48,743 nt of DNA, from positions 1-48,743 of the forward strand of contig JAFVQA010000068.1 in the NCBI GenBank assembly GCA_017505015.1, read 5' to 3'. Under the pieces are notes generated by a model. The model made no database searches and had not been told where the DNA came from. It was given only the letters and a program-made list of their open reading frames with translations. The translations under genes and the position numbers were made by a program. The DNA comes from Clostridia bacterium (GTDB taxonomy: Bacteria; Bacillota; Clostridia; Christensenellales; CAG-314). The first letter of the stretch is position 1, and the number at the start of each line of letters is the position of its first letter. Below, in pieces: positions 4,297 through 47,662 of this stretch.

Positions 4297-5625
4297 CATA
4301 TATCCATATTTGTTTTTATTTTTAATAATAAATGCCACCGACACAACCAGACAAAGCATTTCTGCCACCACCACAGAAAACCAGATGCCTTCTATTCCAA
4401 AAATTGCTGGCAAAGCATATATGCACACAATCTGGAACAAAAACATTCGCAAAAAAGACAAAATTGCCGAAATAAGCCCATTGTTGAGTGCTGTGAAAAA
4501 TGCACTTGCAAAAATGTTGAAACCACTGAACAAAAAGGACAAACAATAAATGCGAAATGCATGTTTTGTAAGAGCAAACAGTTCGGCATCATAGCCGACA
4601 AAAATTTGTGCAAGTGGGTGCGACAACAAAAACGCCACCCCTACAAGGCAAACGCATGCACACAAAATGACAACCAGACTTTTTTTGAGCAGATTTTTTA
4701 GTTCTTTTTTGTTTTGTGCACCAAAGTTAAACCCAACAAGAGGTGCACTGCCCATGCTGTAGCCCAAAAATATGGCAATAAAAACAAAACTTACGTACAT
4801 TATCATGCCATAAGCCGCAACACCGTTTTCGCCGATATATTTCAAAAGTTGAGCGTTATACAAAATATTTACAACCGACATAGAAACGTTTGTGAGCAGT
4901 TCGCTCGAACCGTTTGTAACTGCTTTTGCAATTGCTTTGCCACACCATTTTGTTTTGCCAAGTTTTAGCAGGCTTGAATTTTTGCCTGCAAAATATGCCA
5001 CTGGCACAACTGCACCCACAAACTGACTTGTTGCAGTTGCAACTGCAGCACCAACCACGCCCCACCTGAACAGGGCAACAAAAAGGGCATCCAGCACAAT
5101 GTTTGTAACACCTGCCAGCACAATAACGTAAAGTCCAAGTTTTGGTTTTTCTGCCGTCACGAAAAAGGTTTGAAAAAAGTTTTGCACCATAAATGCAGTT
5201 ACACTGCACATCAAAATTCGGCCATAAGTAACGGCAGGTTTAAGCATATCTGCCGTTGCACCCATAACTATTGCCAAAGGTTTGATAAAAATCTGACCCA
5301 AAACAGTCAGCACAATGCCACAACCAATTGTGAAATAAAGAAACAACGAAAAATATCCGTTTGCTTTTGCATTGTCACCTTCGCCAAGAGTTTTGGCAAC
5401 AAGTGCACTGCCACCTGCACCAATCATAAAACCAACGGCACTCATGCCCATTGTTACAGGCATAATAAAGTTTACTGCGGCAAAGGCAGTTTTGCCCGCA
5501 AAGTTAGATATAAACAAGCCGTCAACAACGCCGTATATCGACGTAAAAATCATCATAATTACCGATGGCAAAACAAAGCGCAACAACTTGTTATACGTGA
5601 AATGTTCGCCAAGACCAATGCTCAT
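4294..5625 (-). CDS. MATE-family multidrug/compound efflux transporter (443 aa)
   Basis: ORF 4294..5724 trimmed to MSIGLGEHFTYNKLLRFVLPSV (ATG 5625) behind SD AAGGGGGA. About 12 hydrophobic segments. The N-terminal PS.I....S.YG.VDG.F motif is typical of MATE proteins. Confidence 0.88.
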   Translation of the reverse strand: MSIGLGEHFTYNKLLRFVLPSVIMMIFTSIYGVVDGLFISNFAGKTAFAAVNFIMPVTMGMSAVGFMIGAGGSALVAKTLGEGDNAKANGYFSLFLYFTIGCGIVLTVLGQIFIKPLAIVMGATADMLKPAVTYGRILMCSVTAFMVQNFFQTFFVTAEKPKLGLYVIVLAGVTNIVLDALFVALFRWGVVGAAVATATSQFVGAVVPVAYFAGKNSSLLKLGKTKWCGKAIAKAVTNGSSELLTNVSMSVVNILYNAQLLKYIGENGVAAYGMIMYVSFVFIAIFLGYSMGSAPLVGFNFGAQNKKELKNLLKKSLVVILCACVCLVGVAFLLSHPLAQIFVGYDAELFALTKHAFRIYCLSFLFSGFNIFASAFFTALNNGLISAILSFLRMFLFQIVCIYALPAIFGIEGIWFSVVVAEMLCLVVSVAFIIKNKNKYGYM

Positions 5626-8609: not shown

Positions 8610-10574
<1,965 letters not shown>

Positions 10575-12536: not shown

Positions 12537-13643
12537 TCATACCATGCGAACAGGCAAAATGAGGTAAAGATAATCTTCTTTATCGCAAGGAGTGATAACA
12601 CAAGGGTTAACAGGAGTGTTAAGGTTTATTTTGATAAACTCGTCGTCAATAACACGTGTGCAGTCAAGAAGATATCTTGAGTTGAAAGCAATTGTCATAT
12701 CTTTACCCACGAGATTTATTGCAACGATTTCGTGAAGGTTTGCACCATCGTCGCTGTTAGAAACAATGTGCAAAGTTTCTTCTTTAATGTCAAGTTTAAC
12801 GAGGTTGTTCTTTTCGCCACGAGAAAGAATTGCAGCTCTGTCAAGACTTGATTTAAACTGATCTTTGTTGATGATAACGTTTGTATCAAAATCGTTAGGA
12901 ATGATTTGTTTGTAATTGATAAAATCACCACTCAACAAACGGGTCATAACACAACTGTGACCAAGATCTACCATCAAAAAGTTGTTTTCTATTTTTACCT
13001 GAACGATATCTTCGCTGTCATCAAGAAATTTGCTGAGTTCTGAAAGACTGCGAGCAGGAACGATAACCTTAATTTTTTCGTCAACTTTGTTTTCAAGTGG
13101 TTTTTTAACCAAAGCCAGACGATAACCGTCAAGTGCAACCGAACTTATTGTAAAATCTTCTGCCTCAAAAAGACAACCTTTGAGAGTTGGTCTTGCATCG
13201 TCAGTTGAAACAGAAAAAATTGTTTTAGAAATAAGGTCTTTAAACTCTTTAGACACAATGCTGAAATATTTGCAGTCAGACAACTTTTCAATTTCAGGAT
13301 ATTCTTCTACAGAAAAGCATTGTTTTTCAATTTCGCCATCTGTATATTTAAGTTTTAAACGAAGGTTGTCGTCAAGAGAAAGTTCGATCTGTTCGTTAGT
13401 GAGCATTTTTACCATGTCGGCAAAAAATCTGCCAGGAACAACAACTTCACCTTCAAGCAAAACTTCTGCATTTATTTTCTTTTCAATAGCAAGCTCGAGG
13501 TCTGTTGCAAACAACACAAGACTGTCGTTTTTTGCAGTAATTTTAATACCCTCTAAAATAGGAGTTACGTTTTTGCTGTTGAGCGCTTTTGTAACCTTAA
13601 GCACTGCATCGCTGAGTTCGAGACCTTGACAAATAACTTTCAT
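12537..13643 (-). CDS. dnaN: DNA polymerase III beta sliding clamp
   Basis: ORF track. SD AAGAGGA. Typical length (368 aa) and three-domain clamp sequence, ending LILPVRM. Confidence 0.95.
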   Translation of the reverse strand: MKVICQGLELSDAVLKVTKALNSKNVTPILEGIKITAKNDSLVLFATDLELAIEKKINAEVLLEGEVVVPGRFFADMVKMLTNEQIELSLDDNLRLKLKYTDGEIEKQCFSVEEYPEIEKLSDCKYFSIVSKEFKDLISKTIFSVSTDDARPTLKGCLFEAEDFTISSVALDGYRLALVKKPLENKVDEKIKVIVPARSLSELSKFLDDSEDIVQVKIENNFLMVDLGHSCVMTRLLSGDFINYKQIIPNDFDTNVIINKDQFKSSLDRAAILSRGEKNNLVKLDIKEETLHIVSNSDDGANLHEIVAINLVGKDMTIAFNSRYLLDCTRVIDDEFIKINLNTPVNPCVITPCDKEDYLYLILPVRMV

Positions 13644-14063
13644 AAAATATCCTCTTTTATAAACAAATTTTTATTTTGATTTGTTTTTGTTAAAACAATT
13701 TATAGTTTTTATAACAAAAAATGACTTTTTTGACGAAAAACATAAAAAAATAAAATTTTTTTTGAGTTAGTTTATATATCAAAAAAGCAGTTGCAGTAGT
13801 AGGGTGTGTTAAAATGTGGATAGATTTTTTAAAAAAACGCAACCTTCACTGACTAAATACATTATAAACGATTTGGCAGAAAATGGCAACACAATATATA
13901 GTTTTTAAGGCCTTTTTAAAAACAAAAATGAACTGTTGAAAACCACCTTTTTTTGTGTTGATAAGGTTGTGTTTTTTGTGTGGAAAAAGGTGTGAAAAAG
14001 TGTGTTTTAACGCAAAAAACTGCCGTTTAAAAAACTTGCTTTTATTTTTTTTTCGTGTATAAT
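13644..14063. other. candidate oriC (A/T-rich unwinding region plus DnaA-box cluster) at the coding-strand switch
   Basis: All genes to the left are on the - strand and all genes to the right on the + strand. 13650-13795 is almost pure A/T. DnaA-box-like 9-mers cluster at 13815-13999. Confidence 0.5.
13815..13999. promoter_or_regulatory. DnaA-box-like sites (8/9 matches to TGTGGATAA)
   Basis: TGTGGATAG 13815-13823, TGTTGATAA 13956-13964, TGTGGAAAA 13979-13987, and a weaker TGTGAAAAA 13991-13999. Confidence 0.45.
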
Positions 14064-14378
14064 GGCACTTACAAAGTGCCCAAAAGTTGGCTCTGTATGG
14101 AGTGCAGTTGTTTTACAAAACTTTTATGGTGCTAATAAGTTGCATAAGACAAATAAAACTGACTTTATATAAAGCTTGTTTACAAAAACTTTGTAGAGTT
14201 TTTGTCGCACTTTTATAAAGTGCGTGTTTAACCCACGAAAAATTTTTAGCATTGCAAATGATAAAAGTTTTTCGTTCTGCTAAAAATAAAAATAAATATA
14301 ACAAACGAAACTTTATACATAATGAAACAATATAACAAGCCATACCGTTGCACACTTGTTAAGTGTGCCCACGGAGTG
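14064..14378 (+). repeat. composite intergenic element E, copy E1 (upstream of dnaA)
   Basis: Starts with GGCACTTACAAAGTGCC and ends with GCACACTTGTTAAGTGTGC-CCACGGAGTG. 14081-14144 matches 20589-20652 at 61/64. 14217-14277 matches the reverse complement of 15924-15984 at 56/61 (hand counts). Confidence 0.8.
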
Positions 14379-14418
14379 AAAAATTAAAAAAGTGATTAAT
14401 TAAAAAGCGGTAAAAAAT

Positions 14419-15765
14419 ATGGACGTAAGAGAACTTTGGCAAAAAATGCTTGATGAACTGGAAACGATGATTCCGGCTTTGGGTTTTGACACTCTCATGG
14501 AAACGACGGCACCAGTAAACGTAACAGAAAACAAACTTATACTTTGCACAAACAGCGAAATTAGCAAAACTTTGGTACAAAAAAGGTTTTTGATACATAT
14601 AAGAGAAGCCATGCAAATGGTTTCGCCTATGCTTGACGACGTTGTTGTTATTACAGAAGACCAGAAAGAATATTATAAAACTAAAGAAGATCAAGACATT
14701 AAACCACTTGGCAACGTGTGGGAAGATGCAAACTTTATTAAAAAATATACTTTTGACAACTTTGTAGTAGGAAGCAGCAACGAATTTGTTGCAGCAGCGT
14801 CACAAGCTGTTTCAGAAGCACCGGGCAAAAAGTTTAATCCGTTGTTTATATATGGTGGTGTTGGTCTTGGCAAAACTCACTTGCTCAACGCCATTGGAAA
14901 CAAAATAACAAGCGATCAGCCACAGTTGAAAACTCTTTACGTTAGTTGCGAAAAATTTACAAACGAACTTATCGAGGCTATCAGGGACACTAAAAACCCA
15001 AGCGATGCCAAAAAAACTTTCCGTCAAAAATATCGCAACTGCGACGTTTTGATGATTGACGATATTCAGTTTATATCAAAAACAGACGCAACTCAGGAAG
15101 AATTGTTTCATACTTTCAACGACCTTTATAATGCAGAAAAGCAAATTATCATAAGCAGTGACCGCCCACCGAGAGAAATTCAACACCTCGAAGACAGGCT
15201 GCGCACAAGATTTGCATGGGGTCTTATTGCAGACATTAAACCACCTGATCTTGAAACACGAATTGCAATTTTGCAAAGAAAGGCAAACGAACAAGGCGTT
15301 GCCGTGCAGGACAGCATTCTTAAACGAATTGCAGAGTCTGTTCAGGACAACATTCGTGATATGGAAGGTCTTCTTACACGCGTTATCAGCTATGCTTCAC
15401 TTACAAACCAAAAAGAAATTGACTTGAACATTCTTAACGAAGCGTTGAAAGACTATACTGACGACCAAAAAGAAATGATTTCTGCCGAAACTATTATGGA
15501 CGTTGTTTGCGAGTATTTCAACGTGAGCAAAGCAGACCTTATTGGCAAAAAGAAAAACAAAGAAATTGTTGAGCCACGACAAATATGCATGTATCTCATC
15601 ACCGAATTTTTGACAACCCCTCTCAAAGAAATTGGCAATATTTTTGGAGGAAGAGACCACACAACAGTTATTTTTGCACGTGACAAAATTGCAGAACAAT
15701 GCAACATGGAAACACGCATTGCTCTTTACGTTAAAGACCTTAAAGCATTGTTGCTCAAGAAGTAA
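14419..15765 (+). CDS. dnaA: chromosomal replication initiator protein DnaA
   Basis: ORF track. AAA+ Walker A GGVGLGKTHLLNAIG, Walker B VLMIDDIQF, sensor SDRPP, domain IV DHTTVIFARDKI. Weak SD. Confidence 0.95.
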   Translation: MDVRELWQKMLDELETMIPALGFDTLMETTAPVNVTENKLILCTNSEISKTLVQKRFLIHIREAMQMVSPMLDDVVVITEDQKEYYKTKEDQDIKPLGNVWEDANFIKKYTFDNFVVGSSNEFVAAASQAVSEAPGKKFNPLFIYGGVGLGKTHLLNAIGNKITSDQPQLKTLYVSCEKFTNELIEAIRDTKNPSDAKKTFRQKYRNCDVLMIDDIQFISKTDATQEELFHTFNDLYNAEKQIIISSDRPPREIQHLEDRLRTRFAWGLIADIKPPDLETRIAILQRKANEQGVAVQDSILKRIAESVQDNIRDMEGLLTRVISYASLTNQKEIDLNILNEALKDYTDDQKEMISAETIMDVVCEYFNVSKADLIGKKKNKEIVEPRQICMYLITEFLTTPLKEIGNIFGGRDHTTVIFARDKIAEQCNMETRIALYVKDLKALLLKK

Positions 15766-15772
15766 GATTTAT

Positions 15773-15810
15773 AGCACTATGAAAGTAAAAACTTTTGTAG
15801 TGCTTTTTTT
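15773..15810 (+). terminator. intrinsic terminator after dnaA
   Basis: AGCACTA-18 nt-TAGTGCT followed by T7. Confidence 0.6.
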
Positions 15811-15814
15811 ATGC

Positions 15815-16224
15815 CACTCTGTGGGGCAGGGTTTCACAAACCCTGCACAAACAGTATAGCTTATTAATTTATTTTGTTGGTTTTATAATTTTTTGTTTTT
15901 ATATTTATTTTTAACTTTAAACGGAACTAAAAACTTTTATCATTTTTAATGTTAAAAATTTTTCGTGAGTTAAACACGCACTTTTTATGCATGCCACGAG
16001 TAGAATTTTTGTTAATGTAATATAGCAAGTGCCAATTTGTAAATAAAATTAATACGAGTAAAAGTGCGACAAAAACAGTAGTAATATCAATTTATCAGCA
16101 CTTGCTGGGTTTTATAACAAACATTTTATTCGTTGTTTTCTCTGCAAATTGTTAGCACTATAAAAGCCTTATGTTACAACTGTGCCATATACTGTGCTTA
16201 CTTTTTTGGCATTTTATAAATGCC
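15815..16224 (-). repeat. composite intergenic element E, copy E2 (inverted, downstream of dnaA)
   Basis: Begins next to dnaA with CACTCTGTGGGGC (reverse complement of the E1/E3 terminal motif). Contains the 61-nt core 15924-15984 and an inverted, diverged copy of the 64-nt block (about 16150-16200). Ends with GGCATTTTATAAATGCC (16208-16224). Confidence 0.8.
15985..16060 (+). repeat. sub-element S (76 nt) filling a palindrome loop inside E2
   Basis: E2 reads GCACTTT-[76 nt: ..CCACGAGTAGAA...ATACGAGTA]-AAAGTGCGAC. The homologous E1 site is an intact hairpin CGCACTTTTATAAAGTGCG (14206-14224). Confidence 0.7.
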
Positions 16225-16356
16225 CACTTTTTAAGTGCCTTGTGGTTGTAAAACTTTTGACCACAATATGTTGTGTTTTGGTATTTTTTGTGAAAAAAAG
16301 TATATAAAAAAGGTGAAATTATGCACATTTTTGGGGTATGCAAAAAGTTAAATTCG

Positions 16357-16385
16357 TTGACATAAACAAGATTTTACTTTATACT
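16357..16385 (+). promoter_or_regulatory. sigma-A-type promoter for rpmH operon (TTGACA-17-TATACT)
   Basis: TTGACA 16357-16362, a 17-nt spacer, TATACT 16380-16385. It lies 57 nt upstream of the rpmH ATG. Confidence 0.65.
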
Positions 16386-16441
16386 TGATTGGTTAAAACA
16401 AATATTATGGGGAATTCCCTAAAAAAATAGGAGAAGGCAAA

Positions 16442-16576
16442 ATGAAAAGAACTTATCAACCTAAAAAAAGACAACGCAGCAAAGTACACGGCTTCCGTAA
16501 AAGAATGGCAAGCAAAGGTGGCAGAAACGTTCTCGCTAGAAGAAGAGCAAAAGGCAGACACCAACTCTCTGCATAA
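16442..16576 (+). CDS. rpmH: 50S ribosomal protein L34
   Basis: Below the ORF-track size cutoff. SD AGGAGAAGG. My translation is [44 protein letters not shown] (44 aa). Confidence 0.93.
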
Positions 16577-16583
16577 TTGGTAA

Positions 16584-16925
16584 ATGATGGAAAAACAATA
16601 TAGGCTACGCAAAAACTATCAGTTTAATTACGTGTATAAACACGGCAAAGCAATTAGCGACAAAAATCTGGTGTTAGTTTTTTGCCAAAACAAAAACAAC
16701 AAGCCTAAAATTGGGTTTTCTATAAGCAAAAAGTTTGGCAAAGCAGTAAAGCGCAATAAAATGCGCCGTCGCCTTAAAGAAATTGTAAACAAAAGGTTTG
16801 GTTTGCTTGAAAGAAAGTATAACTATATCTTTTTGCCAAGAATAAAAGAAGAGCCTGCAACTTTTGCACAGCTTGAAAAATCTGTAGATTATCTTTTGGA
16901 AAAAGTAAAAAAAGAACAAGCATGA
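16584..16925 (+). CDS. rnpA: ribonuclease P protein component
   Basis: ORF track. Basic 113-aa protein directly after rpmH, with LRKNYQFNYVYKHGK and the KAVKRNKMRRRLKE (RNR-like) motif. Confidence 0.9.
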   Translation: MMEKQYRLRKNYQFNYVYKHGKAISDKNLVLVFCQNKNNKPKIGFSISKKFGKAVKRNKMRRRLKEIVNKRFGLLERKYNYIFLPRIKEEPATFAQLEKSVDYLLEKVKKEQA

Positions 16926-17164
16926 AATGGATATGTATAGGTCTGTTGAAATTGTATAAATTGTTTTTGTCACCTTTTACAGGCAAAAACTGTTTGTTTT
17001 ATCCTACTTGTTCGGTTTATTCGATGGAGGCGTATTATACGCACGGTTTTTTTAAAGGAAGTTGGCTTACCGCCAAACGACTTGTCAGGTGTGGTCCTTG
17101 GTCAAAGGGTGGTTTTGACCCCATACCGTACAAATTTGGAGGTAACATAAAATGGGTTATATGA
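16922..17164 (+). CDS. yidD: membrane protein insertion efficiency factor YidD
   Basis: ORF track. YKLFLSPFTG..C.FYPTCSVYSMEA....G...G..L...R..RCGPW..GG.DP.P motif. 4-nt overlap with rnpA. Confidence 0.88.
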   Translation: MKWICIGLLKLYKLFLSPFTGKNCLFYPTCSVYSMEAYYTHGFFKGSWLTAKRLVRCGPWSKGGFDPIPYKFGGNIKWVI

Positions 17165-18303
17165 TCTCATTTTTGGCAGCACTTGAAGTGCCAGATCTTA
17201 ACTGGGTCGGCAATATCGTAGCTGCACTTTACAATTTTGTAGGCAACTACGGCTGGACAGTCGTGTTGTTTACTGTGATACTTAAAGTTATCACATTGCC
17301 TCTTGATTTTTGGCAACGCATCAGCACAAAGAAAAATGCCATCAAGATGCAACAAATGCAACCTATGATGGAAAAGATTGACAAAGCATATGGTGCAAAC
17401 GTTAAAGGTGCTCAACAAGAAAAGCAAAAACTCATGAAAAAGTTTGGCTATTCTATGTTTTCGAGCTGTTTGCCAACTTTGGTAACGCTTGTTGTCTTTA
17501 TCATCATGTTCTCTGGTCTTACAAGTTATTCTTCACACGCAAACGTAAAAGAATATAACGAACTTGTAGAAGCATATCACTACAACGTTGTTGTTCAGGC
17601 ACAAGAAGAAGACCTTGTTATTTCTGACACACTCAAAGCTGTTATTGCCGACGGTGTTTATGAAAAAGGTGACTGGAACGAACAGGCAGAATCTGCATAT
17701 TTTGCAGAAATCGTGCCACAAATCAATGAATTGGTTAACACAGACCAAGAAAAATATTCACGCATTATCGAAGGAACAAAAATACCTGTTGCAGAATTTG
17801 CAAAACAAAACAGAGAAAGCTTCCTTTGGATAAAAAATATCTGGCGTGCCGACACATGGCAAAGCGTAATGCCGGATTATGACGAGTTTAAAAACGGTGG
17901 AATGGGCACAGCCGGTATCGATGGTGCCGACGAAGCAGAATATAACGTTATTTATGAAGCCGTAACAACTCATGCAGGTGGTTATGCCGGTGCAGCATGG
18001 AATGGTTTGCTCATTCTTCCTGCCCTTGCAATTGCATTGTCATTCTTGTCAATGAAACTCACACAAGGTTCAAACCCAATGGCAAACGACCCACAATCAC
18101 AAAGAACATCAAAAATGATGATGCTCATGATGCCACTCATGATGTCATTCTTTATCTTGTTATATACAGCGGCACTTGGTGTATATATCGTAAGCAACTC
18201 TATCTTGTCAATTTTTACAACGTTGCTTATTACACCAATCGTTAACAAAATGATTAAAGAAAAAGACATTCAGATTGTAAAACAGGCATCATACAGGAGA
18301 TAA
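17152..18303 (+). CDS. yidC: YidC/Oxa1-family membrane insertase (long variant with about 150-aa insert)
   Basis: ORF track. VLFTVILKVITLPLD, QQMQPMMEKI...EKQKLMKKFG, FLWIKNIWRAD and the C-terminal TM bundle. The start could be 17152 or 17161. Confidence 0.88.
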   Translation: MGYMISFLAALEVPDLNWVGNIVAALYNFVGNYGWTVVLFTVILKVITLPLDFWQRISTKKNAIKMQQMQPMMEKIDKAYGANVKGAQQEKQKLMKKFGYSMFSSCLPTLVTLVVFIIMFSGLTSYSSHANVKEYNELVEAYHYNVVVQAQEEDLVISDTLKAVIADGVYEKGDWNEQAESAYFAEIVPQINELVNTDQEKYSRIIEGTKIPVAEFAKQNRESFLWIKNIWRADTWQSVMPDYDEFKNGGMGTAGIDGADEAEYNVIYEAVTTHAGGYAGAAWNGLLILPALAIALSFLSMKLTQGSNPMANDPQSQRTSKMMMLMMPLMMSFFILLYTAALGVYIVSNSILSIFTTLLITPIVNKMIKEKDIQIVKQASYRR

Positions 18304-18304
18304 A

Positions 18305-18979
18305 ATGAGACAGGTTGAAGAAAGCGCAAAAAACGTTGACCTTGCCATCGAAAAAGCTTTGACCAAACTCGGTATCACCCAAAACCAGGCAGAAATAGAA
18401 GTGTTGAGCACAGGTGGTTTGTTTAAACAAGCCAAAGTGAGAGTAACAAAAAAACAAACGGAAGGCGAAGTTGCATCAAAGTTTGTTGAAAACGTTTTGG
18501 AAAAAATGGGTCTCACTTTTGTCGTTGAACTTGAAGAAAGCGAAACAGACGTTAAACTTGAACTCACAGGCACAGAAACTGGTTGTGTCATTGGCTATCG
18601 TGGCGAAGTGCTTGATGCTTTGCAATATTTGGCTTCGCTGGTGGCAAACAAAGGAAAAGAAGGATATAAACGCATCATTCTTGACACAGAAAACTATCGT
18701 GAAAAACGCGTTGAAAAACTCAACTCACTTGCAAAAAATCTTGAGATAAAAGCAATGCGTATCAACAAACCTGTAAAGCTCGAACCGATGAACTCTTTTG
18801 AAAGAAGAATTATCCACTCAGCTTTGCAAAGCAGTGAAAAGGTAGTTACAAAGTCAGAAGGCACGTCTCCAAACAGATACGTTGTTATCGTTCCAAAAGA
18901 TTATTCACCTTCTGCACAAAAACCAGAAAGAAAAAAGATGCACAAGTTTGTATATCGTTCAGACAAAAAAAGAAGATAA
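18305..18979 (+). CDS. jag: Jag/KhpB-type RNA-binding protein (Jag_N, KH, R3H)
   Basis: ORF track. Conserved position after yidC. KH-like GYRGEVLDALQYL and R3H LEPMNSFERRIIH. Confidence 0.85.
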   Translation: MRQVEESAKNVDLAIEKALTKLGITQNQAEIEVLSTGGLFKQAKVRVTKKQTEGEVASKFVENVLEKMGLTFVVELEESETDVKLELTGTETGCVIGYRGEVLDALQYLASLVANKGKEGYKRIILDTENYREKRVEKLNSLAKNLEIKAMRINKPVKLEPMNSFERRIIHSALQSSEKVVTKSEGTSPNRYVVIVPKDYSPSAQKPERKKMHKFVYRSDKKRR

Positions 18980-18986
18980 ATTGACG

Positions 18987-19020
18987 AAGGTGAGGTTTTT
19001 TAAATCTCACCTTTTGTTAT
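18987..19020 (+). terminator. intrinsic terminator after jag
   Basis: AAGGTGAG-11 nt-CTCACCTT followed by TTGTTATTT. Confidence 0.6.
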
Positions 19021-19156
19021 TTATTTTGTATGCCCACTGTTTTTATAGTGAGCGTATATAATAAATAACAACATTTGCTCGCAGGTGTGCAATCTGCAAA
19101 AAAACAAGCATTAAAAGAGTATAGTTAAACAATATTTATACTGAGCCATACTGTTG

Positions 19157-19173
19157 GGCACTTTTAAAGTGCC
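19157..19173 (+). repeat. CACTT/AAGTG palindrome abutting the mnmE SD
   Basis: GAGCCATACTGTTG-GGCACTTTTAAAGTGCC-GGGAGA-AAACCT-ATG. Same arrangement as upstream of gyrB. Confidence 0.7.
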
Positions 19174-19185
19174 GGGAGAAAACCT

Positions 19186-20487
19186 ATGAATGAAAAAATC
19201 ACAGCAATAAGCACCCCTATCGGCCGTGGTGCAATTTCTATCGTGCGAATGAGTGGTGACGGCGTTATTGACGTTGCCAGACAAATGTTTGCAAAAATGC
19301 CAGATCAACCCGGTTTGTTGCAACTTGGCAAACTTGACGCAGGCGAATTTTGCGACCAGGCAATGTGCGTTTATTTTAAAGCACCAAGGTCATATACCGG
19401 CGAAGATATGGTAGAGTTTCAGTTGCATGGTGGCTATGCCATTGCAAACGGTGTGCTTAAAGCGTGCATTCAAAAAGGTTGCCGTCTTGCAGAAAATGGT
19501 GAGTTTACAAAACGAGCATATCTCAACGGAAAAATTAACCTTTCTAACGTAGAAGGTATTATGGATATGATCGATGCCGAAAATATTGCCGCTGTAGAAA
19601 ACGGATATAAAATGCTTTCGGGCAAACTTGACGGCAAAATAAATTTGTTGCAAGACAAACTCACAGATCTTTTGGCTCAGATAGAAGTTGCGCTTGACTA
19701 TCCAGAAGAAGACCTTGAATTTATAACTAAAGATCAGGTGCAAGACGTTTTGCATTTTGCTATTGACGAAACTCAAAAGCTTTTGGACAGTGCGTCTAAA
19801 GGTCGCATCATTAAAAACGGTGTGGACATTGCAATTGTGGGCAAAACAAACGTTGGCAAAAGTTCGCTCCTCAATGCCCTTGTTGGTTTTGACAGAGCAA
19901 TAGTAACCAACATAGAAGGAACAACACGCGATACCCTCAGTGAAAGTTATATTTACAAAGACGTAAAATTTAACTTTATTGACACAGCAGGTTTGCGTCA
20001 GACAGATGACGTTGTAGAAAGCATTGGCATAGAAAGGTCTTTGCAGGCTGTTGAAAAGGCAGACATTGTTTTGCTTGTGTTTGACGGTGGCGAAATTCCG
20101 CAGGAATATATCGAAATAAAAACAAACCCAAAAACAATTTGCGTGTTTAACAAGGCAGACTTAATGACAAACCCGGACAAAAACGTTTTGTCTGTATCTG
20201 CAAAAACCGGTGAAAACGTAGAACAACTCAAGTCACAGGTTTATGACAAAATAAAGGCTGACAACGTGTCTTCTACCGACGTGGTAATTACAAATGCAAG
20301 ACACATTGATTGCCTGCAACGTGCAAACGACAGCCTTAAAACGGCATTGCAAAACAGTTTTATAACACTCGACTGCATTGCGTTGGAAATTAAAGAAGGC
20401 TGGCAGGCATTGGGTGAAATAACAGGCACAACTGCCAGCGAAGACGTTGTAACCCGCATTTTTGAAAAGTTTTGTGTAGGTAAATAG
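19186..20487 (+). CDS. mnmE: tRNA modification GTPase MnmE
   Basis: ORF track. G1 GKTNVGKSSLLN, G3 DTAGLR, NKADL, C-terminal FCVGK. Confidence 0.95.
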   Translation: MNEKITAISTPIGRGAISIVRMSGDGVIDVARQMFAKMPDQPGLLQLGKLDAGEFCDQAMCVYFKAPRSYTGEDMVEFQLHGGYAIANGVLKACIQKGCRLAENGEFTKRAYLNGKINLSNVEGIMDMIDAENIAAVENGYKMLSGKLDGKINLLQDKLTDLLAQIEVALDYPEEDLEFITKDQVQDVLHFAIDETQKLLDSASKGRIIKNGVDIAIVGKTNVGKSSLLNALVGFDRAIVTNIEGTTRDTLSESYIYKDVKFNFIDTAGLRQTDDVVESIGIERSLQAVEKADIVLLVFDGGEIPQEYIEIKTNPKTICVFNKADLMTNPDKNVLSVSAKTGENVEQLKSQVYDKIKADNVSSTDVVITNARHIDCLQRANDSLKTALQNSFITLDCIALEIKEGWQALGEITGTTASEDVVTRIFEKFCVGK

Positions 20488-20571
20488 TATAAAGAACTAT
20501 ACTTTATATCTGCACAGACCCCCTAGCGATTTTGCTTGCAAAACGCGTCAAAGTTCTGCGTAGGAAAATAA

Positions 20572-20985
20572 CACACTTAAAAAGTGTGCAAAAGTAGGCT
20601 CTGTATGGAGTGCAGTTGTTTTATAAAACTTTTATTGTGCTAATAAGTTGCAGAAGCACGCATTCACGAGTAAAGATTTTGTAAACTATACAAAGAAAGT
20701 GTCACTGTGTAAAAGGTATCACTACGAGTAAAAAGTGTGCAAAAGTATGGCTTTACATACAGTTCAGCTGTAAAACAAAGCCTTTATGGTGCTGTCGGGT
20801 TTTGCATTATTACAAATTTTGCCACGCTTTTTTAAAGCGTGTGTTGAACGTGCAAAAAAGATTTGATATGAAATAGCAAAGATTTTTTGCTCATTAAAAA
20901 AACAAAAATAAAAATATAAAACAAAACAATATAAAAAGCAATACTGTTTGTGCAGGATTTGTGAAATCCTGCCCCACGGAGTGAT
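20572..20985 (+). repeat. composite intergenic element E, copy E3 (upstream of mnmG)
   Basis: CACACTTAAAAAGTGTG, then the 64-nt block (20589-20652), an S-filled palindrome, a diverged second block (about 20745-20800) and CACGCTTTTTTAAAGCGTG. Ends with ATACTGTTTGTGCAGGATTTGTGAAATCCTGCCCCACGGAGTG, which is almost identical to the reverse complement of 15815-15860. Confidence 0.8.
20662..20730 (+). repeat. sub-element S (about 69 nt) filling a palindrome loop inside E3
   Basis: GCACGC-[ATTCACGAGTAAAG...58-nt spacing...CTACGAGTA]-AAAAGTGTGC. Confidence 0.65.
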
Positions 20986-21107
20986 AGAGCAAAAAAACAC
21001 ACACCTCTCATGGCATTGAGAACACTCTCCCGTGCGTATGACATACCCCTGCCAAGCCAATGGCAGATAAAATGATAAAAAATCCTTTATATAAAAAGGT
21101 GAAAGAT

Positions 21108-30096: not shown

Positions 30097-30113
30097 GATA
30101 CTTAAAAAGTATC
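30097..30113. repeat. empty palindrome GATACTTAAAAAGTATC
   Basis: Perfect 7-bp arms. An S-filled counterpart lies 85 nt downstream. Confidence 0.6.
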
Positions 30114-30188
30114 CAAATGTATGCTTGATATACAGTGTGGTTGAAACACAAAATTTTTTGCTGACAATGAGTTGTTGAGGGATACCTT

Positions 30189-30255
30189 CACGAGTAAAAC
30201 GTGTGTAAACAACGCACAGCAAGGGCTTGTTTGTTGACAAAACCACTTCGAGTTA
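30189..30255 (+). repeat. sub-element S (about 67 nt) filling a GGATACCTT/AAGTATCC palindrome
   Basis: GGATACCTT-[CACGAGTAAAACGTGTGTAAA...58-nt spacing...CTTCGAGTTA]-AAGTATCC. Confidence 0.6.
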
Positions 30256-30389
30256 AAGTATCCAATAGTATGGCTCAGTGTGGTTGCAACATTAAAAAAC
30301 AAGCCCCTGTGGTGCTGACAGGTTGCAGAAATTGCAACCGAATATCAAAAAAGAAAAAAACTTGCACAACAGTTGCAAAGAGGTGCTAT

Positions 30390-33300
30390 ATGAAAAAACT
30401 TTTTAAAAAATTTAATCTTTCAATAATTTCACTGGTGTTTGCACTGACACTTTGTTTTGGTGGCATTGCTTTGTCAGCCCCAAAAAAGGTTGATGCAGCA
30501 GAATACGTAGCGCAAGCAAACAGCACGCAATACGTCACTTTGCAAGAGGCTTTTGCCAGCGCCACAGACGGCGTGCAGACAAACATAAAACTGCTTGCCG
30601 ACGTAACGACAACCGAAATTATTCAAATCGCAGCAGAAAAAAACGTGGTGTTTAATCTTAACGGTTTTAACCTTATAAACCCAAACGATGGTGTTTTTAG
30701 AATTTTAGGCACGTTTTGCATTAAAGGCAACGGCTCTGTCAAAGGCGCGTCAGAAGGTGCAACAATCAGCACAATAAACGTTGGTCAAACAGGCACGCTT
30801 GTTCTTGAGGGTGGCACAATTACATCACTGGGCGGAACAGGAAACAGATGCATTTATTCACAGGGCACTGTTACAATAAAGGGTGGCAGTATAGAAAACG
30901 GTTCGGCAGAGAATGGCGGTGGCATCTATAGCAGTGGCACACTCACAATAAACGGTGGCACAATATCAAACAACAGAGCAACCGGAGGTGGTGGCATTTT
31001 TTCACAGGGCACACTCACTATAAATGGTGGCACAATTTCAAACAACACTGCAGACGATGGCGGTGGCATTTATTCTACTGGTGGCACACTCACTATAAGC
31101 GATGGCACAATTTCAAATAACACTGCAAACAATGGCGGTGGCATTTATGCCGTCGGCTATTGCACAGTTGATATAACAAATGGCGCTATCGAACAAAATG
31201 ATGCAGTCAACGATGGCGGTGGCATCTTTTTTGCAAAAGGCAGACTCAAAATGACGGGTGGCACAATTTTGAGCAACACTGCAGGGGGCAATGGTGGTGG
31301 CATTTTTAACGTAAGTGACAACAGCAACACAAACCTAGTAGAAATAGCCGGTGGGTTTATAGAGTCAAACACAGCAGAGGGCAATGGCGGTGGCATTTTT
31401 AACTCCATTGACACATCCAAAGGAAATCTGAGCATAAGTGGCAGTGCAATGATAACAAAAAACCAAAGCAACAATGGTGCCGGCATTTACAACAATGGTG
31501 GTGTCTTTAGTGCGGTTGGTGGCACTGTTTCGCAAAACGTTGCAAAAAGTGGTGGCGGTGGCATCTTTAACAATTATGGCACTCTTGACGTGACAAGAAT
31601 CACAATATCAGGCAACAGTGCAACAAATGGTGGTGGCATTTTTGCTAACAATGGCACTATCAACATCAAATACAACACTTTTATCTCACAAAACACAGCA
31701 AGGTTTGGTGGTGGCGTTTACAGCGATTCATGCGCTGTCACTGTTACTGGTGCAACAATAACACAAAACACAGCGACAGACGAAGGCGGTGGCATTTATA
31801 TTTATATTTATGCAAATGTAGCAAAAACCGTTGATATACAAAAAACAACAATCAGCTCTAACAAAGCAACAAGCCTGGGTGGTGGCATTCATGTCAATTC
31901 GGGCATAGTTAATATAGGCAGTGACGTTTTGATCACAACAAACAGTGCAGAATATGGCGGTGGCATTTTTCTTGAAAAAAATAGCACAATTGCTATAAAC
32001 GGAGCAACAGTATCAGAAAACACTGCAAAATATCAGGGTGGTGGTATTTCTTGCGGTGGAAAAACAACAATTGAAAATGCCACAATCAGCAAAAACAAAA
32101 GTGTGGATGGTGCAGGCATTTTCAGTGCCGGCGAAGTTGAAATAAACAGCACTACTTTTGAAGAAAACATTGCAACAAGTGATGGCGGTGGCGTTTATGC
32201 CAATATAGACATACTCAAACTCAACAGCTGTTTGATATCAAAAAACACTGCATACGACGGTGCAGGCATTTTTAACAAATGCACGCTGACTATTGATGGT
32301 GGCGAAATAACAGACAACATTGCAAAAAACTATGGCGGTGGTGTTTTGAATGACGAGACAGGCACGCTCACTGTGGACAGTGCAACAATATCAGACAACA
32401 CTGCAAGTATTGGTGGTGGCATTTATAACCATGAAGCAGGCATTCTCACTGTTGATGGTGGTGAAATAACACAAAACAAAGCAACTACGGCTGCCGGTGG
32501 CATTTATAACAAAGGCACAGTTGAAATTTTGACAGGACTTGTTTCACAAAACAAAGAAACTAGATATGGCGGTGGCATTTATAACGAAGGCACGTTCACT
32601 GTGACAGGTGGAACAATTTCAGGCAACGAAGCAACAGAATTTGGCGGAGGTGTTTATAATAGTGGCGACCTTACTGTTGAGGGTGCAACAATTTCACAAA
32701 ACACTGCAACGTATAATGGCGGTGGCATTTATAACGAAAGCACACTCACTGTGTCAGGCAGTTCAATTTTAAATAACAGTGCTGTTGATGGTGGTGGCAT
32801 TTATAACTATGGAGCAGGCATTCTCATTGTTGATGATGGTGAAATTTCAGGCAACGAAGCAACGTATGATGGTGGTGGCATTTATAACTATGGCACGGTT
32901 GAAATTTTGACAGGACTTGTTTCACAAAACAGAGTAACCAGATATGGTGGTGGAATTTATAACGCTCCTGACAGAACTGTAACGATATACAACGAAGTAA
33001 CAATTTCAAACAACAGCGCACAATATGGCGGTGGCATTTATAATAGTGGCGAACTTTCTGTTGAGGGTGCAACAATTTCACAAAACACTGCAACGTATAA
33101 TGGCGGTGGCATTTATAACTCTGACACAGTTGAAATTTTTACAGGATATGTTTCACAAAACACTGCAACGTATGATGGCGGTGGCATTTATAACTTTGGC
33201 ACAGTTGAAATTTTGACAGGATCTGTTTCACAAAACACTGCAATGTCTAGTGGTGGTGGTATTTATAACCAAGGTACAGTTACTGTGTCTGGTGGTGAAA

Positions 33301-39621: not shown

Positions 39622-39635
39622 GCAACCAACAATAA

Positions 39636-39718
39636 ATACAGGGGAGCTATAAAAAGCTGAGAGGAAGTTTTGCTTCGACCCTTTTACCTGATGCGGATAA
39701 TGCCGTCGTAGGAAGTCA
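39636..39718 (+). promoter_or_regulatory. TPP riboswitch 1 (THI element aptamer)
   Basis: GGGGAGC...GCTGAGAGGAAG...CGACCCTTTTACCTGATGCGGATAATGCCGTCGTAGGAAG matches the conserved THI-box core. Confidence 0.85.
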
Positions 39719-39735
39719 TAACTGGGACTATTGTA

Positions 39736-39764: not shown

Positions 39765-39775
39765 ATGCTTTTAAC

Positions 39776-39858
39776 AACACAGGGGAGCTTGCTTTGCAGG
39801 CTGAGAGGAAGTTTTTCGACCCTTTATCTGACGTGGATAATGCCACCGTAGAGAGTTT
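39776..39858 (+). promoter_or_regulatory. TPP riboswitch 2 (THI element aptamer)
   Basis: GGGGAGC...GGCTGAGAGGAAG...CGACCCTTTATCTGACGTGGATAATGCCACCGTAGAGAG. Confidence 0.85.
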
Positions 39859-39875
39859 TGTTTTTGCTTTTTTAC

Positions 39876-43648: not shown

Positions 43649-44953
43649 ATGAAAAACTATGCCACACAAATGGATGCCGCAAAACAAGGCATCATCACAA
43701 AAGAAATGGAAATTGTTGCCAAAAAAGAATTTCGTTCTGCTCAGGAAATTTGTGACCTTGTTGCAAAAGGGCAGGTGGCAATTTGCGCAAACAAAATGCA
43801 CAAGTGTTTAGATGCACAAGGCGTTGGTTCAATGCTCAAAACCAAAATTAACGTAAACCTTGGTGTGTCACGCGACTGCAAAGACTATGACGTCGAGATG
43901 CAAAAAGTTTTGACTGCGGTTGATATGGGTGCCGATGCTATTATGGATTTGTCATCTCACGGCAACACTCAACCATTCAGGCAAAAACTTGTAAGCGAGT
44001 GCCCTGCAATGATTGGCACGGTGCCTGTGTATGATGCCGTTATTCATTATCAGCGTGACCTTGCAACACTTTCGGCAAAAGATTTTGTCGACGTGGTGCG
44101 TTTGCATGCACAAGATGGCGTTGACTTTGTTACTTTGCATTGTGGTATTACACGCAAAACCATAGAACAAATCAAAAAACACAAACGCAAAATGAACATT
44201 GTTTCACGCGGTGGGTCGCTTGTTTTTGCATGGATGAGCATGACAGGGCAGGAAAACCCTTTTTATGAATATTTTGACGAAATTCTGGATATCTGCCGTG
44301 AATATGACGTTACGATTTCTTTGGGTGACGCCTGCAGACCAGGTTGCCTTGCCGATGCAAGCGACGTTTGCCAGATCGAAGAGCTTGTTCGCCTTGGCGA
44401 ACTTACAAAACGTGCATGGGCAAAAGACGTGCAGGTTATGGTAGAAGGCCCTGGCCATATGCCAATGGATCAGATAGCGGCAAACATGAAAATTCAGCAG
44501 ACTATCTGCATGGGTGCACCTTTCTACGTGCTTGGTCCAATCGTTACGGATATTGCCCCTGGCTACGACCACATTACTTCTGCAATAGGTGGTGCAATTG
44601 CCGCTGCAAACGGTGCTGCTTTTCTTTGTTACGTTACACCGGCAGAGCACCTTGCTTTGCCAAACGTAAATGACGTTAAACAAGGCATTATTGCATCAAA
44701 AATTGCAGCACATGCGGCTGACATTGCCAAAAAAATTCCTCACGCAAGAGATTTCGACGACCAGATGGCAGATGCAAGGCGCACCTTTGATTGGCAAAAA
44801 CAGTGGCAGTGTGCAATAGACCCTGCAACTGCAAAAGCAATTCGCGACTCGCGTGCGCCAGAACATGACGACAGTTGTTCAATGTGTGGCAAATTTTGTG
44901 CAGTTCGCAGTATGAACAAAGCCCTCAACGGCGAATATATAGACATTTTGTAA
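43649..44953 (+). CDS. thiC: phosphomethylpyrimidine synthase ThiC
   Basis: ORF track. Radical-SAM-type C-terminal cluster CSMCGKFCA, plus VEGPGH and [18 protein letters not shown]. Confidence 0.96.
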
Positions 44954-44991
44954 AAAGCAACACGCATATAACAATGCTGTTTGCAAAAAAT

Positions 44992-45019
44992 AAAAAGCAC
45001 GGAAATCCCGTGCTTTTTT
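44992..45019 (+). terminator. intrinsic terminator (GCACGG family)
   Basis: AAAGCACGG-AAAT-CCCGTGCTTT followed by T-run. Confidence 0.8.
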
Positions 45020-45104
45020 GTTGCAAAAAACAACCAACTTTTTATCTAAATTATTTGGATAGGGTGATGAAACGTTTTTTTAAAAAATAAATTTGCTATA
45101 TCAT

Positions 45105-45133
45105 TTGACAAAAATAAAAAACAAGTCTATACT
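45105..45133 (+). promoter_or_regulatory. sigma-A-type promoter for tRNA-Arg (TTGACA-17-TATACT)
   Basis: TTGACA 45105-45110, a 17-nt spacer, TATACT 45128-45133. Confidence 0.65.
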
Positions 45134-45155
45134 ATATAGGCTAATCAAATAGTAT

Positions 45156-45232: not shown

Positions 45233-45236
45233 AATT

Positions 45237-45266
45237 GCCTGTTTCATTATGAAACAGGCTTTTTTG
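45237..45266 (+). terminator. intrinsic terminator after tRNA-Arg
   Basis: GCCTGTTTC-ATTAT-GAAACAGGC followed by T6. Confidence 0.8.
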
Positions 45267-47440: not shown

Positions 47441-47472
47441 GTTGTGAAAAAGATACAATAAAAAATATATTT

Positions 47473-47548
47473 CACTTTACTCGAACTGGTGTAGTGTTAC
47501 ACAGAAGCACTTTCTACATATTATTTACACACGCTCTACTCGTAGCGC
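47473..47548 (-). repeat. sub-element S, reverse orientation
   Basis: Reverse strand reads GCGCTACGAGTAGAGCGTGTGTAAA...59-nt spacing...GTTCGAGTAAAGTG. The internal CGTGTGTAAA is shared with the 30189 copy. Confidence 0.55.
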
Positions 47549-47662
47549 AAGACAAAAATGAAATTTTTTGTCTTGCTTTCACACTTTAATTCGTGAAAGC
47601 ACTTTACAAAACTAAAGTGAGGGTGTAAAATGGTTTCAATATCACAAATCGGTGGGTTTAAA

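What the first reader, a model, noticed from the sequence alone, without database searches (positions are those of the whole stretch)
15985..16060. Filled versus empty sites: a 67-76 nt sub-element S sits in the loops of CACTT/AAGTG palindromes
- In E1 the hairpin CGCACTTTTATAAAGTGCG (14206-14224) is intact. At the homologous position in E2 the arms GCACTTT and AAAGTGC are separated by 76 nt (15985-16060).
- The same thing is seen at 20662-20730 (arms GCACGC / AAAAGTGTGC) and at 30189-30255 (arms GGATACCTT / AAGTATCC). The second of these has an intact GATACTTAAAAAGTATC only 85 nt upstream, at 30097-30113.
- A fourth copy lies in reverse orientation at 47473-47548.
- Every copy starts with (C/T)ACGAGTA(A/G)A and ends with (A/T)(A/C/T)CGAGT(A/T)A. 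These two direct repeats are 58-59 nt apart.
- Two copies share an internal CGTGTGTAAA.
- S has the same + strand orientation in E2 and E3 even though those hosts are inverted relative to each other. This argues that S arrived independently of E.

This looks like a miniature element with a structured-DNA (hairpin-loop) target preference. No transposase is present in this window.
Basis: seen in the sequence. Interest (0 to 1): 0.65.

Follow-up and report, generated by a model that had tools for sequence, protein, structure and literature searches.

The report
Small insert inside repeat hairpin loops
A ~67-base sequence recurs inside or right beside short palindromes of a lineage-specific family of mosaic intergenic repeats in an uncultured gut Clostridia bacterium; it is a real, discrete insert, but nothing shows that it is a self-standing transposon.

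Summary
Four ~67-nt copies of S lie at the stated coordinates, each bounded by ACGAGTARA ... CGAGTWAA boxes 58-59 nt apart (4 matches against 0.01 expected). Three of the four sit between the arms of CACTT/AAGTG-type palindromes, which are themselves 13-fold enriched.

The window is the oriC/dnaA region of an uncultured Clostridia MAG. S belongs to a mosaic repeat family confined to a narrow clade. The usual layout is an empty hairpin H0, a ~65-nt unit U, a left arm, S, a right arm, then U again.

S1 is a derived 73-nt gain in a loop: the two paralogous hairpins in E1 and E3 are empty. The three strain polymorphisms found do not match S alone:
- 151 nt: U plus S2.
- 143 nt: one tandem period holding S3.
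- 101 nt: S4 plus a neighbouring hairpin.

S has direct terminal repeats rather than inverted ones. I found no target-site duplication, no conserved fold, no conserved promoter and no recombinase nearby. Copy number is low.

I read S as an optional loop module of BIME/BOX-like mosaic repeats, spread mainly by recombination or template switching at the palindromes. A trans-mobilised miniature element that targets hairpins remains a live rival. Interest is moderate.

The parts
15995..16063 (+). S1: S copy in the loop of the E2 hairpin
   Evidence: (nhmmer E = 9.6e-14).
15987..15994 (+). 8-nt palindromic filler ATGCATGC between the left arm and S1. It is part of the 73-nt indel and is absent from the other copies.
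15978..15986 (+). Left arm of the E2 hairpin (GCACTTTTT).
16060..16068 (+). Right arm of the E2 hairpin (AAAAGTGCG). It overlaps the last A's of S1.
16069..16133 (-). S' in E2: an older, degenerate S-like stretch that follows U without a left arm. It converges on S1.
   Evidence: E = 1.7e-4, model positions 2-46.
14147..14205 (+). S' in E1: the homologue of the E2 S', more decayed (5' box ACAAATAAAA, 3' box GTAGAGT).
   Evidence: read from the alignments. nhmmer did not detect it.
14206..14224 (+). Empty hairpin of E1, CGCACTTTTATAAAGTGCG. This is the empty counterpart of the S1 site.
20823..20841 (+). Empty hairpin of E3, CACGCTTTTTTAAAGCGTG. It is homologous to the E1/E2 hairpin with compensatory stem changes, and serves as the outgroup that makes S1 a gain.
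20665..20733 (+). S2, between the imperfect arms GCACGC (20656-20661) and AAGTGTGC (20733-20740).
20578..20728 (+). 151-nt block (U_b plus left arm plus S2) that is missing in the strain of run X6. It is bounded by a 19-nt direct repeat.
   Evidence: joint 20577 to 20729, 174 letters on the shorter side, 19 shared.
30189..30257 (+). S3, between the arms GGATACCTT and AAAGTATCC. It is conserved at the orthologous site of MAG RGIG3825.
30133..30275 (+). 143-nt tandem period (rest of U_d, the arms, S3, start of U_e) that is missing in the strain of run X11.
   Evidence: joint 30132 to 30276, 11 shared letters.
47475..47544 (-). S4: S copy beside a hairpin rather than in a loop.
47545..47575 (+). 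Hairpin GCGCAAGAC..GTCTTG, gained or lost together with S4. The net block is 101 nt (47475-47575).
   Evidence: strains in X6, X9 and X24 skip 47440-47575. X24 has 32 other letters there.
47576..47600 (-). Hairpin CTTTCAC..GTGAAAG whose loop holds a lone S-box-like CACGAATTAAAGTG.
   Evidence: read directly from the sequence.
14064..14146 (+). H0 plus U_a, the host repeat unit of E1.
   Evidence: D15, D20; E = 3e-24.
16134..16241 (-). Hairpins plus U of E2.
20571..20655 (+). H0 plus U_b. 92-93% identical to U_a, with sharp boundaries.
20741..20809 (+). U_c, the unit after S2.
30097..30178 (+). H0 (GATACTTAAAAAGTATC) plus U_d.
30265..30333 (+). U_e, the unit after S3.

Best explanation
S is an optional 'loop module' of about 67 nt in a lineage-specific family of mosaic intergenic repeats. 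The basic repeat is a short palindrome H (arms NNCACTT / AAGTGNN, 3-nt loop) followed by a ~65-nt unit U.

Layout (shown). When an H-U unit follows another U, its palindrome nearly always holds S between the arms instead of the 3-nt loop. On its 3' side S joins the right arm directly (...CGAGTWAA|AGTG...). On its 5' side, 1-11 filler bases link it to a left arm that has usually lost its last two T's.

Features (shown). S does not code for anything, has no fold of its own, and has direct rather than inverted terminal boxes.

History (shown). S was gained at least once on its own, in the loop of the E2 hairpin. Elsewhere it is gained or lost together with neighbouring modules.

Mechanism (inferred). 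S is copied from one palindrome to another by the host's recombination and replication machinery. This would be gene conversion or template switching at extruded or stalled palindromes, with the conserved AAGTG arm acting as the homology anchor. That accounts for a precise 3' junction and a ragged 5' junction. Unequal recombination between the repeats then duplicates, carries along or deletes S. In effect S behaves like the long linker of a BIME or the boxB module of a BOX element, not like a transposon with its own ends.

Possible function (inferred). The two end boxes are conserved between orthologues and strains while the middle varies. This hints that the boxes are recognised by something, either a protein or the copying process.
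For: - Same architecture, H0-U-armL-S-armR-U, at S2 and S3, at two sites in L003, and in L010, L013 and L014. L011 and L012 share it up to armR, where a T module precedes the next U. It is seen again in a further contig of runs X1/X3.
- Position rule: 9 of 11 hairpins that follow a U are filled; 0 of 19 first or solo hairpins are (p = 4e-6).
- All three strain polymorphisms are blocks larger than S, with breakpoints inside repeats: 151 nt between 19-nt repeats, 143 nt between 11 shared nt inside two U units, and 101 nt of S4 plus a hairpin.
- Exchange between repeats is visible: U_a and U_b are 92-93% identical with sharp edges; an X11 contig joins E1 to the S1 hairpin on the opposite strand; modules assort independently (Mantel r = -0.16).
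- S lacks transposon hallmarks: no inverted terminal repeats, no consistent target-site duplication, no conserved fold, no conserved promoter.
- No recombinase gene lies in the window or in the RGIG3825 loci L011-L013, whose larger ORFs I scanned; only precomputed Pfam tags were read for L003.
- Low copy number and a narrow range: only one MAG among 185,579 species representatives, one metagenome contig, and none in relatives with 75-77% DnaA identity.
- Orthologue comparison, window against RGIG3825: boxes 34/35 identical, S middle 22/34, U units 112/134.
Against: - S1 is a clean gain of S alone in a loop. The only shared flanks are arms of 7-9 nt, which is very little homology for recombination.
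- On the complementary strand, the copies whose flanks were read begin right after (C/T)ACTT, with two departures (GACTT at L12, AACTT at L10). That regularity looks like the target-site rule of single-strand (HUH) transposons.
- Conserved ends with a variable middle is also what selection for mobility produces among paralogues.
- S occurs in at least four different upstream contexts and three downstream contexts.
- No template-switch or conversion event that creates an S site was observed directly.
- Only about 100 kb of S-bearing genomes could be examined, so a partner gene elsewhere cannot be excluded.
Confidence: 0.45

Rival explanations
1. S is a non-autonomous miniature mobile element, moved in trans by a recombinase encoded elsewhere in the genome. 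Candidates are a Y1/HUH enzyme of the IS200/IS605 or RAYT kind, or an IS110- or IS3-like enzyme of the kind that targets REP palindromes. The enzyme would recognise the CACTT/AAGTG hairpin and insert S into or beside it.
For: - S1 is a derived, clean 73-nt gain in a loop.
- All but two of the copies whose flanks were read start, on the complementary strand, right after (C/T)ACTT, with no target-site duplication. That is the IS200/IS605 insertion style.
- Ends are conserved and the middle is variable.
- S and U histories are uncoupled.
- Flanking contexts vary.
- S1 is inverted relative to its host array.
- Insertion sequences that target REP palindromes are documented (PMC1525189).
Against: - S has no subterminal hairpins and no inverted terminal repeats.
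- Its terminal repeats are direct.
- The 5' junction is ragged: filler of 1-11 nt and a truncated left arm.
- Low copy number.
- No transposase in the 48.7-kb window or in the related loci scanned.
- S is never found in first or solo hairpins.
- No S-only polymorphism between strains was found; all three involve larger blocks.
- The boxes are also conserved between orthologues, which selection for mobility does not predict.
Confidence: 0.3
2. S is kept by selection as a cis-acting functional element. The two ACGAGTAAA-type boxes, 58-59 nt apart, would be sites for a DNA- or RNA-binding protein, or part of a UTR element. How S spreads would be secondary.
For: - Boxes are 34/35 identical between orthologues, against 65% for the S middle and 84% for U (p about 0.03-0.05).
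- The strain variants listed inside S1 and S3 all fall in the middle.
- Arrays start right after stop codons or a TATAAT hexamer, so they are probably transcribed.
- RNA contigs of a relative run from an S end into armR-U.
Against: - Only one orthologous pair is available, and the variant lists are truncated.
- No conserved secondary structure, no Rfam match and no conserved promoter.
- S lies beside unrelated housekeeping genes.
- Strains without S2, S3 or S4 exist.
- The RNA evidence is thin, and DNA carry-over cannot be excluded.
Confidence: 0.13
3. S is ancestral: the hairpins originally had long loops, and the 'empty' palindromes are deletion products.
For: - Palindromes and tandem repeats are prone to deletion.
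- Loss of one whole period is seen at S3, where the more distant RGIG3825 keeps the two-unit state.
Against: - For S1, both E1 and the outgroup paralogue E3 are empty, and E3's stem carries compensatory changes around a 4-nt loop.
- The ~19 first or solo hairpins have uniform 3-nt loops with no trace of an S box.
- Relatives with 75-77% DnaA identity have neither H nor S.
Confidence: 0.08
4. The resemblance is chance or low-complexity similarity in AT-rich spacers.
For: With one mismatch allowed, the 9-mer alone is no more frequent than expected (14 against 14.1).
Against: - The paired boxes occur 4 times against 0.01 expected.
- nhmmer E-values run from 1e-13 to 1e-19.
- The same element is found in three other sets of contigs.
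Confidence: 0.01

Closest known systems
BIMEs: clusters of REP / palindromic units with alternative linker motifs, in Enterobacteria
   Same: - Extragenic arrays in which complementary palindrome halves alternate with two kinds of linker.
- The head-to-head linker comes in a short and a long version; here these are the 3-nt loop and S.
- The number of units varies between strains through recombination.
- Arrays lie at gene ends and in intergenic spacers (PMC3333891, PMC2817692, PMC4550694).
   Different: - The arms here are only 6-9 nt, against palindromic units that are themselves imperfect palindromes of 20-40 nt.
- Copy number is far lower.
- The host is a Firmicute with no sequence similarity to enterobacterial REPs.
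- No RAYT gene was found.
- The idea that the long BIME linker binds IHF comes from my own knowledge. No counterpart was tested here.
BOX elements of Streptococcus (boxA, a variable number of boxB, boxC)
   Same: - Modular composite repeats in a Firmicute.
- An optional internal module lies between terminal modules that pair with each other, and contributes little to the fold.
- Module content varies between strains.
- The elements are found in UTRs (PMC3049150).
   Different: - boxB occurs in tandem runs of 0-8 copies; S never repeats within one loop.
- BOX elements have inverted terminal repeats and target-site duplications.
- The BOX terminal modules are 50-60 nt, not 6-9 nt.
- There is no sequence similarity.
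Insertion sequences that target REP palindromes (IS1397, ISKpn1, IS621, ISPpu9, ISPpu10)
   Same: Insertion is directed at short extragenic palindromes (PMC1525189, PMC12288879). This is the best precedent for a preference for hairpin targets.
   Different: Those are full insertion sequences that encode their own transposase. S is 67 nt, non-coding, and has no ends like theirs.
IS200/IS605-family elements, their miniature derivatives, and REPINs with RAYT
   Same: - Insertion next to a fixed short sequence without a target-site duplication.
- Association with hairpins.
- Possible strand bias.
- Non-autonomous copies moved in trans (PMC3333891, PMC3116915).
   Different: - S has no subterminal hairpins of its own.
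- It has direct terminal repeats.
- No Y1 gene was found.
- REPINs are pairs of inverted REPs, which S is not.

Membership tests
Classical MITE (cut-and-paste, non-autonomous) | Inverted terminal repeats | tested here: not met
   The S ends are direct repeats (ACGAGTARA ... CGAGTWAA). No inverted ends appear in 11 aligned copies.
Classical MITE (cut-and-paste, non-autonomous) | Target-site duplication of fixed length | tested here: not met
   No consistent duplication. A 'TA' is possible at S1 only. The 19-nt and 4-6-nt repeats at S2 and S4 bound larger blocks.
IS200/IS605-derived miniature element / REPIN | Subterminal hairpins at both ends of the element | tested here: not met
   Folding 11 copies on both strands shows no conserved internal hairpin. 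Only the host arms pair.
IS200/IS605-derived miniature element / REPIN | Insertion 3' of a fixed tetra- or pentanucleotide, with no target-site duplication | tested here: met
   On the complementary strand, 9 of the 11 copies listed start right after (C/T)ACTT. L12 starts after GACTT and L10 after AACTT.
IS200/IS605-derived miniature element / REPIN | A Y1/HUH transposase (TnpA or RAYT) in the same genome | not testable with these tools
   None in the window or in L011-L013, whose larger ORFs I scanned; L003 carries only precomputed Pfam tags, none of them a transposase. Whole genomes could not be fetched.
IS200/IS605-derived miniature element / REPIN | Orientation bias relative to replication | tested here: inconclusive
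   All four copies lie to the right of the GC-skew minimum. Three are on + and one on -.
REP/BIME-type mosaic repeats | Extragenic palindromes, far more frequent than chance, in clusters with alternative linker motifs | tested here: met
   11 palindromes against 0.83 expected. Arrays carry either the 3-nt loop or S between the arms, and U between hairpins.
REP/BIME-type mosaic repeats | High copy number (more than 100 per genome) of 20-40-nt imperfect palindromes | tested here: inconclusive
   The palindromes are 13-19 nt, at about 0.25 per kb in the window. Genome-wide counts could not be obtained.
BOX-type modular repeats | Terminal modules that pair, with an optional internal module between them | tested here: met
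   The arms pair in at least 5 of 11 filled sites (p = 4e-4). Empty and filled versions coexist.
BOX-type modular repeats | The internal module occurs in tandem runs of variable number | tested here: not met
   There is never more than one S per loop. What varies is the number of whole H(S)-U periods.
Structured non-coding RNA or riboswitch family | A conserved secondary structure with covariation, or an Rfam match | tested here: not met
   No Rfam hit at the gathering threshold or at E <= 5. The alifold consensus for U is -0.63 kcal/mol. S has no common fold.

The most novel reading that the evidence does not exclude
S is a new kind of minimal (~67 nt) non-autonomous mobile element. It has direct terminal boxes, and an as yet unidentified recombinase that recognises structure or sequence integrates it 3' of CACTT, in or beside extruded palindromes. 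If so, it is a hairpin-loop-targeting element that fits none of the MITE, REPIN or IS200/605 definitions.
Probability: 0.2. Interest if true: 0.7.

Novelty: new variant of a known kind. Interest (0 to 1): 0.4.

Why it matters
Short mosaic repeats (REP/BIME, BOX) shape genome rearrangement, mRNA stability and strain typing in model bacteria. They are barely charted in uncultured gut Clostridia.

This family is undescribed. It has no Rfam, plasmid or phage match, and it appears in one MAG among 185,579 species representatives. It sits at the replication origin, brackets dnaA as an inverted repeat, and varies between strains.

S gives a rare case in which the gain of a loop module can be given a direction. 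If an enzyme turns out to place S in hairpin loops, that would be a new targeting mechanism. If not, S is a tidy example of recombination building mosaic repeats.

Tried and rejected
- **Rfam.** Scans at the gathering threshold (whole window) and at E <= 5 (13600-21100) found only one tRNA and two TPP riboswitches, nothing at S, U or H.
- **Folding.** Folding S with its arms on both strands, and alifold of 18 U units, showed no conserved structure.
- **Promoter idea.** TTGCAG-17-TAAAAC and TGTGTA-17-TAAAAG pairs sit at both boxes, but the second hexamer lacks the final T. My own scan finds a reverse-strand promoter-like pair at one shared position in only 4 of 11 copies. The tool's count is not above the shuffles (13 against 9.1 +/- 3.3).
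- **Target-site duplication and inverted terminal repeats.** None found.
- **S derived from U.** One copy (L14) aligns to U over 42 nt at 69% identity, with a score above all shuffles. The profile search finds nothing and the alignment diagonals scatter, so this stays a hint only.
- **DnaA-box, dif/Xer-like and Spo0A-box resemblances.** Checked by eye and dropped: 2-3 mismatches and not conserved across copies.
- **Co-dispersal of S with the upstream U.** Rejected by the Mantel test (r = -0.16).
- **Metatranscriptomes.** Coverage comes from relatives at 92-95% identity and is too thin to map transcripts over S.
- **Collection scans.** The strict S pattern gave only RGIG3825 in genome contigs and one short contig in metagenome contigs. 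The plasmid and phage collections gave no match.
- **Look-up of the exact TrpR-like protein to fetch an S4-empty allele.** All four contigs returned were filled.
- **The X6 joint 15984 to 16059 (+A).** It could be an S1-empty allele, but it equals the E1 hairpin read in reverse. It probably comes from the paralogue, so I did not count it.

Full report
**Setting.** The window is the replication-origin region of an uncultured Clostridia bacterium from animal guts.
- dnaA lies at 14419-15765 (+). gyrA, gyrB, recF and dnaN lie upstream on the minus strand. rnpA, yidD, yidC, jag, trmE, gidA, gidB, parA and parB follow downstream.
- Cumulative GC skew turns near 12-14 kb.
- Two metagenome contigs are 99.8-99.9% identical to the window and carry the same S copies.
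- The closest named DnaA is from 'MAG: Clostridia bacterium'.

- The four S copies are at 15995-16063, 20665-20733 and 30189-30257 on the + strand and 47475-47544 on the - strand.
- The paired end boxes (ACGAGTA, 40-62 nt, CGAGT) occur 4 times against 0.01 expected.
- All six exact ACGAGTARA sites in the window lie in S.
- The copies form one family at about 66% identity, with nhmmer E-values from 1e-13 to 1e-18 in the window.
- CACTT-N2-8-AAGTG palindromes are 13-fold enriched, 11 against 0.83 expected.
- Aligning E1 with the reverse complement of E2 leaves a single 73-nt gap exactly in the loop of CGCACTTT..AAAGTGCG.

**What S sits in.** S is one module of a larger mosaic.
- A palindrome H is followed by a ~65-nt unit U. 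I found 11 U hits in the window and 17 in related loci.
- The recurrent layout is H0 (empty), U, left arm plus about 3 nt, S, right arm, U. It is seen at S2 and S3, twice in tandem in L003 (a genome with 85% DnaA identity), in L010, L013 and L014, and in a further contig of runs X1/X3. In L011 and L012 a third module, T (taaggagcgtagcgacggaata...), follows the right arm before the next U.
- H stems differ between units but stay complementary (GGCACTT, ACACACTT, GATACTT, GGCCATTT, GCGCACTT, CACGCTT).
- Neither U nor S has a conserved fold or an Rfam match.
- H, U and S are all absent from the origin regions of relatives at 75-77% DnaA identity.
- A strict S pattern matches only one MAG (RGIG3825, roe-deer caecum) among 185,579 species representatives, and one short metagenome contig.
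- The plasmid and phage collections have nothing similar.
- The family is therefore young, narrow in range and low in copy number.

**Evidence that S is a separate insert.**
- E1, E2 and E3 are paralogous composites. E1 and E2 are closest to each other, and E3 is the outgroup.
- At the homologous hairpin, E1 and E3 are empty and E3's stem carries compensatory changes (CACGC/GCGTG). The 73-nt S1, which includes an extra ATGCATGC, is therefore a gain in E2.
- S1 is inverted relative to its host array and lies next to an older, decayed S-like stretch (16069-16133).
- Similarity among S copies is unrelated to similarity among their upstream U units (Mantel r = -0.16).
- U_b is a 92-93% copy of U_a with sharp edges, while the S2 beside it has no such counterpart.
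- S also occurs behind other hairpins (S4, and one contig in X1-X3) and in front of non-U sequence.
- Every copy touches a CACTT/AAGTG-type arm. On the complementary strand, 9 of the 11 copies begin right after (C/T)ACTT.

**Evidence against a self-standing transposon.**
- S has direct rather than inverted ends, no consistent target-site duplication and no hairpins of its own.
- Its 5' junction is ragged: filler of 1-11 nt, and a left arm that has usually lost TT. Its 3' junction is exact.
- It is almost confined to hairpins that follow a U: 9 of 11 of those are filled, against 0 of 19 first or solo hairpins (p = 4e-6).
- The three differences between strains are all larger than S:
  - X6 lacks 20578-20728, which is U_b plus the left arm plus S2, between 19-nt repeats.
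  - X11 lacks 30133-30275, one tandem period, with the breakpoint in 11 nt shared by U_d and U_e. RGIG3825 keeps both units at this site, so this one is a loss.
  - X6, X9 and X24 lack a 101-nt block made of S4 plus the hairpin at 47545-47575.
- The window and the related loci I scanned encode only housekeeping genes. There is no transposase or recombinase, although a DUF559 nuclease-like gene follows the array in L013.

**Hints of constraint.**
- Between the window and RGIG3825 the S3 boxes are 34/35 identical. The S middle is 22/34 and the flanking U units 112/134.
- The strain variants listed inside S1 and S3 all fall in the middle.
- This rests on one orthologous pair and on truncated variant lists, so it is only suggestive.
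- No conserved promoter was found.
- RNA data are too thin to say more than that such arrays can appear in transcripts of relatives.

**Interpretation.**
- I rate as most likely (0.45) that S is an optional loop module of BIME/BOX-like mosaic repeats. It would be copied between palindromes by recombination or template switching anchored at the AAGTG arm, and then duplicated, carried along or deleted by unequal recombination.
The clean S1 gain and the CACTT junction rule support it.
- A selected cis-acting role for the boxes (0.13) is compatible with either of these.
- An ancestral long loop (0.08) is disfavoured by the outgroup paralogue.
- Chance is excluded.

**Comparison with known systems.**
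- In architecture S is nearest to the long linkers of BIMEs and the boxB module of BOX elements (PMC3333891, PMC2817692, PMC3049150).
- In target it is nearest to the insertion sequences that aim at REP palindromes (PMC1525189).
- It fails the defining tests for MITEs (inverted terminal repeats, target-site duplication) and for IS200/605-type miniatures (subterminal hairpins).
- It is best filed as a new variant of modular interspersed repeats in an unstudied lineage.

Noticed in passing
window 14064-14317 and 15884-16241 (E1/E2), with dnaA at 14419-15765: dnaA is bracketed by inverted copies of a composite repeat, 80% identical over 104 nt. It is transcribed divergently from dnaN, which is not the usual dnaA-dnaN order. 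Relatives L003, L004 and L007 show different gene orders around dnaN-dnaA. A 655-nt contig of run X11 joins the left part of E1 (13934-14197) to the reverse complement of 15981-16076, so the dnaA segment may be inverted in that strain.
   Followed up: partly
window 39630-39731 and 39771-39871: Two tandem TPP riboswitch aptamers (64.5 and 62.5 bits) lie upstream of thiW and a thiamine-synthesis operon (thiM, thiE-HAD, thiD, thiC).
   Followed up: no
window 30390-35702: A 1770-aa protein is made of ~25-residue Chlam_PMP repeats plus a Big_3 domain. Its DNA repeats dominate the repeat finder's output. The S3 array lies in its upstream region.
   Followed up: partly
window 15804-15903 and 20895-20994: A hairpin GGGGCAGGGTTTCACAAACCCTGC plus an AT-rich stretch after dnaA has an inverted copy in front of gidA (78% identity over 100 nt). 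A similar hairpin follows dnaA in L003.
   Followed up: no
window 19155-19175, 10526-10546 and 47601-47620: H-type palindromes sit immediately upstream of the ribosome-binding sites of trmE, gyrB and a TrpR-like gene. Others start right after stop codons. They may affect translation or mRNA stability.
   Followed up: no
window 14062-14149 against 20571-20659: Two H-U units 6.5 kb apart are 92-93% identical with sharp boundaries. This points to recent copying or gene conversion between repeats.
   Followed up: partly
L013 2307-2714: A DUF559 (PD-(D/E)XK-like endonuclease) gene lies directly downstream of an H-U-S-U array in MAG RGIG3825. It is the only nuclease-like gene seen next to an array.
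   Followed up: no
L011 3942-4000 and 4075-4100; L012 about 4925-4965: A further repeat module T (taaggagcgtagcgacggaata, then the hairpin GCGATTG..CAATCGC) alternates with U and S in RGIG3825. One variant S (L011 4106-4169, minus strand) abuts T with no palindrome arm between them.
   Followed up: partly
L016 1-730 against window 44625-45360: In one sample the DAHP-synthase gene is preceded by spoIIIAC genes instead of thiC and tRNA-Arg. This is a rearrangement or strain difference at the tRNA-Arg boundary.
   Followed up: no
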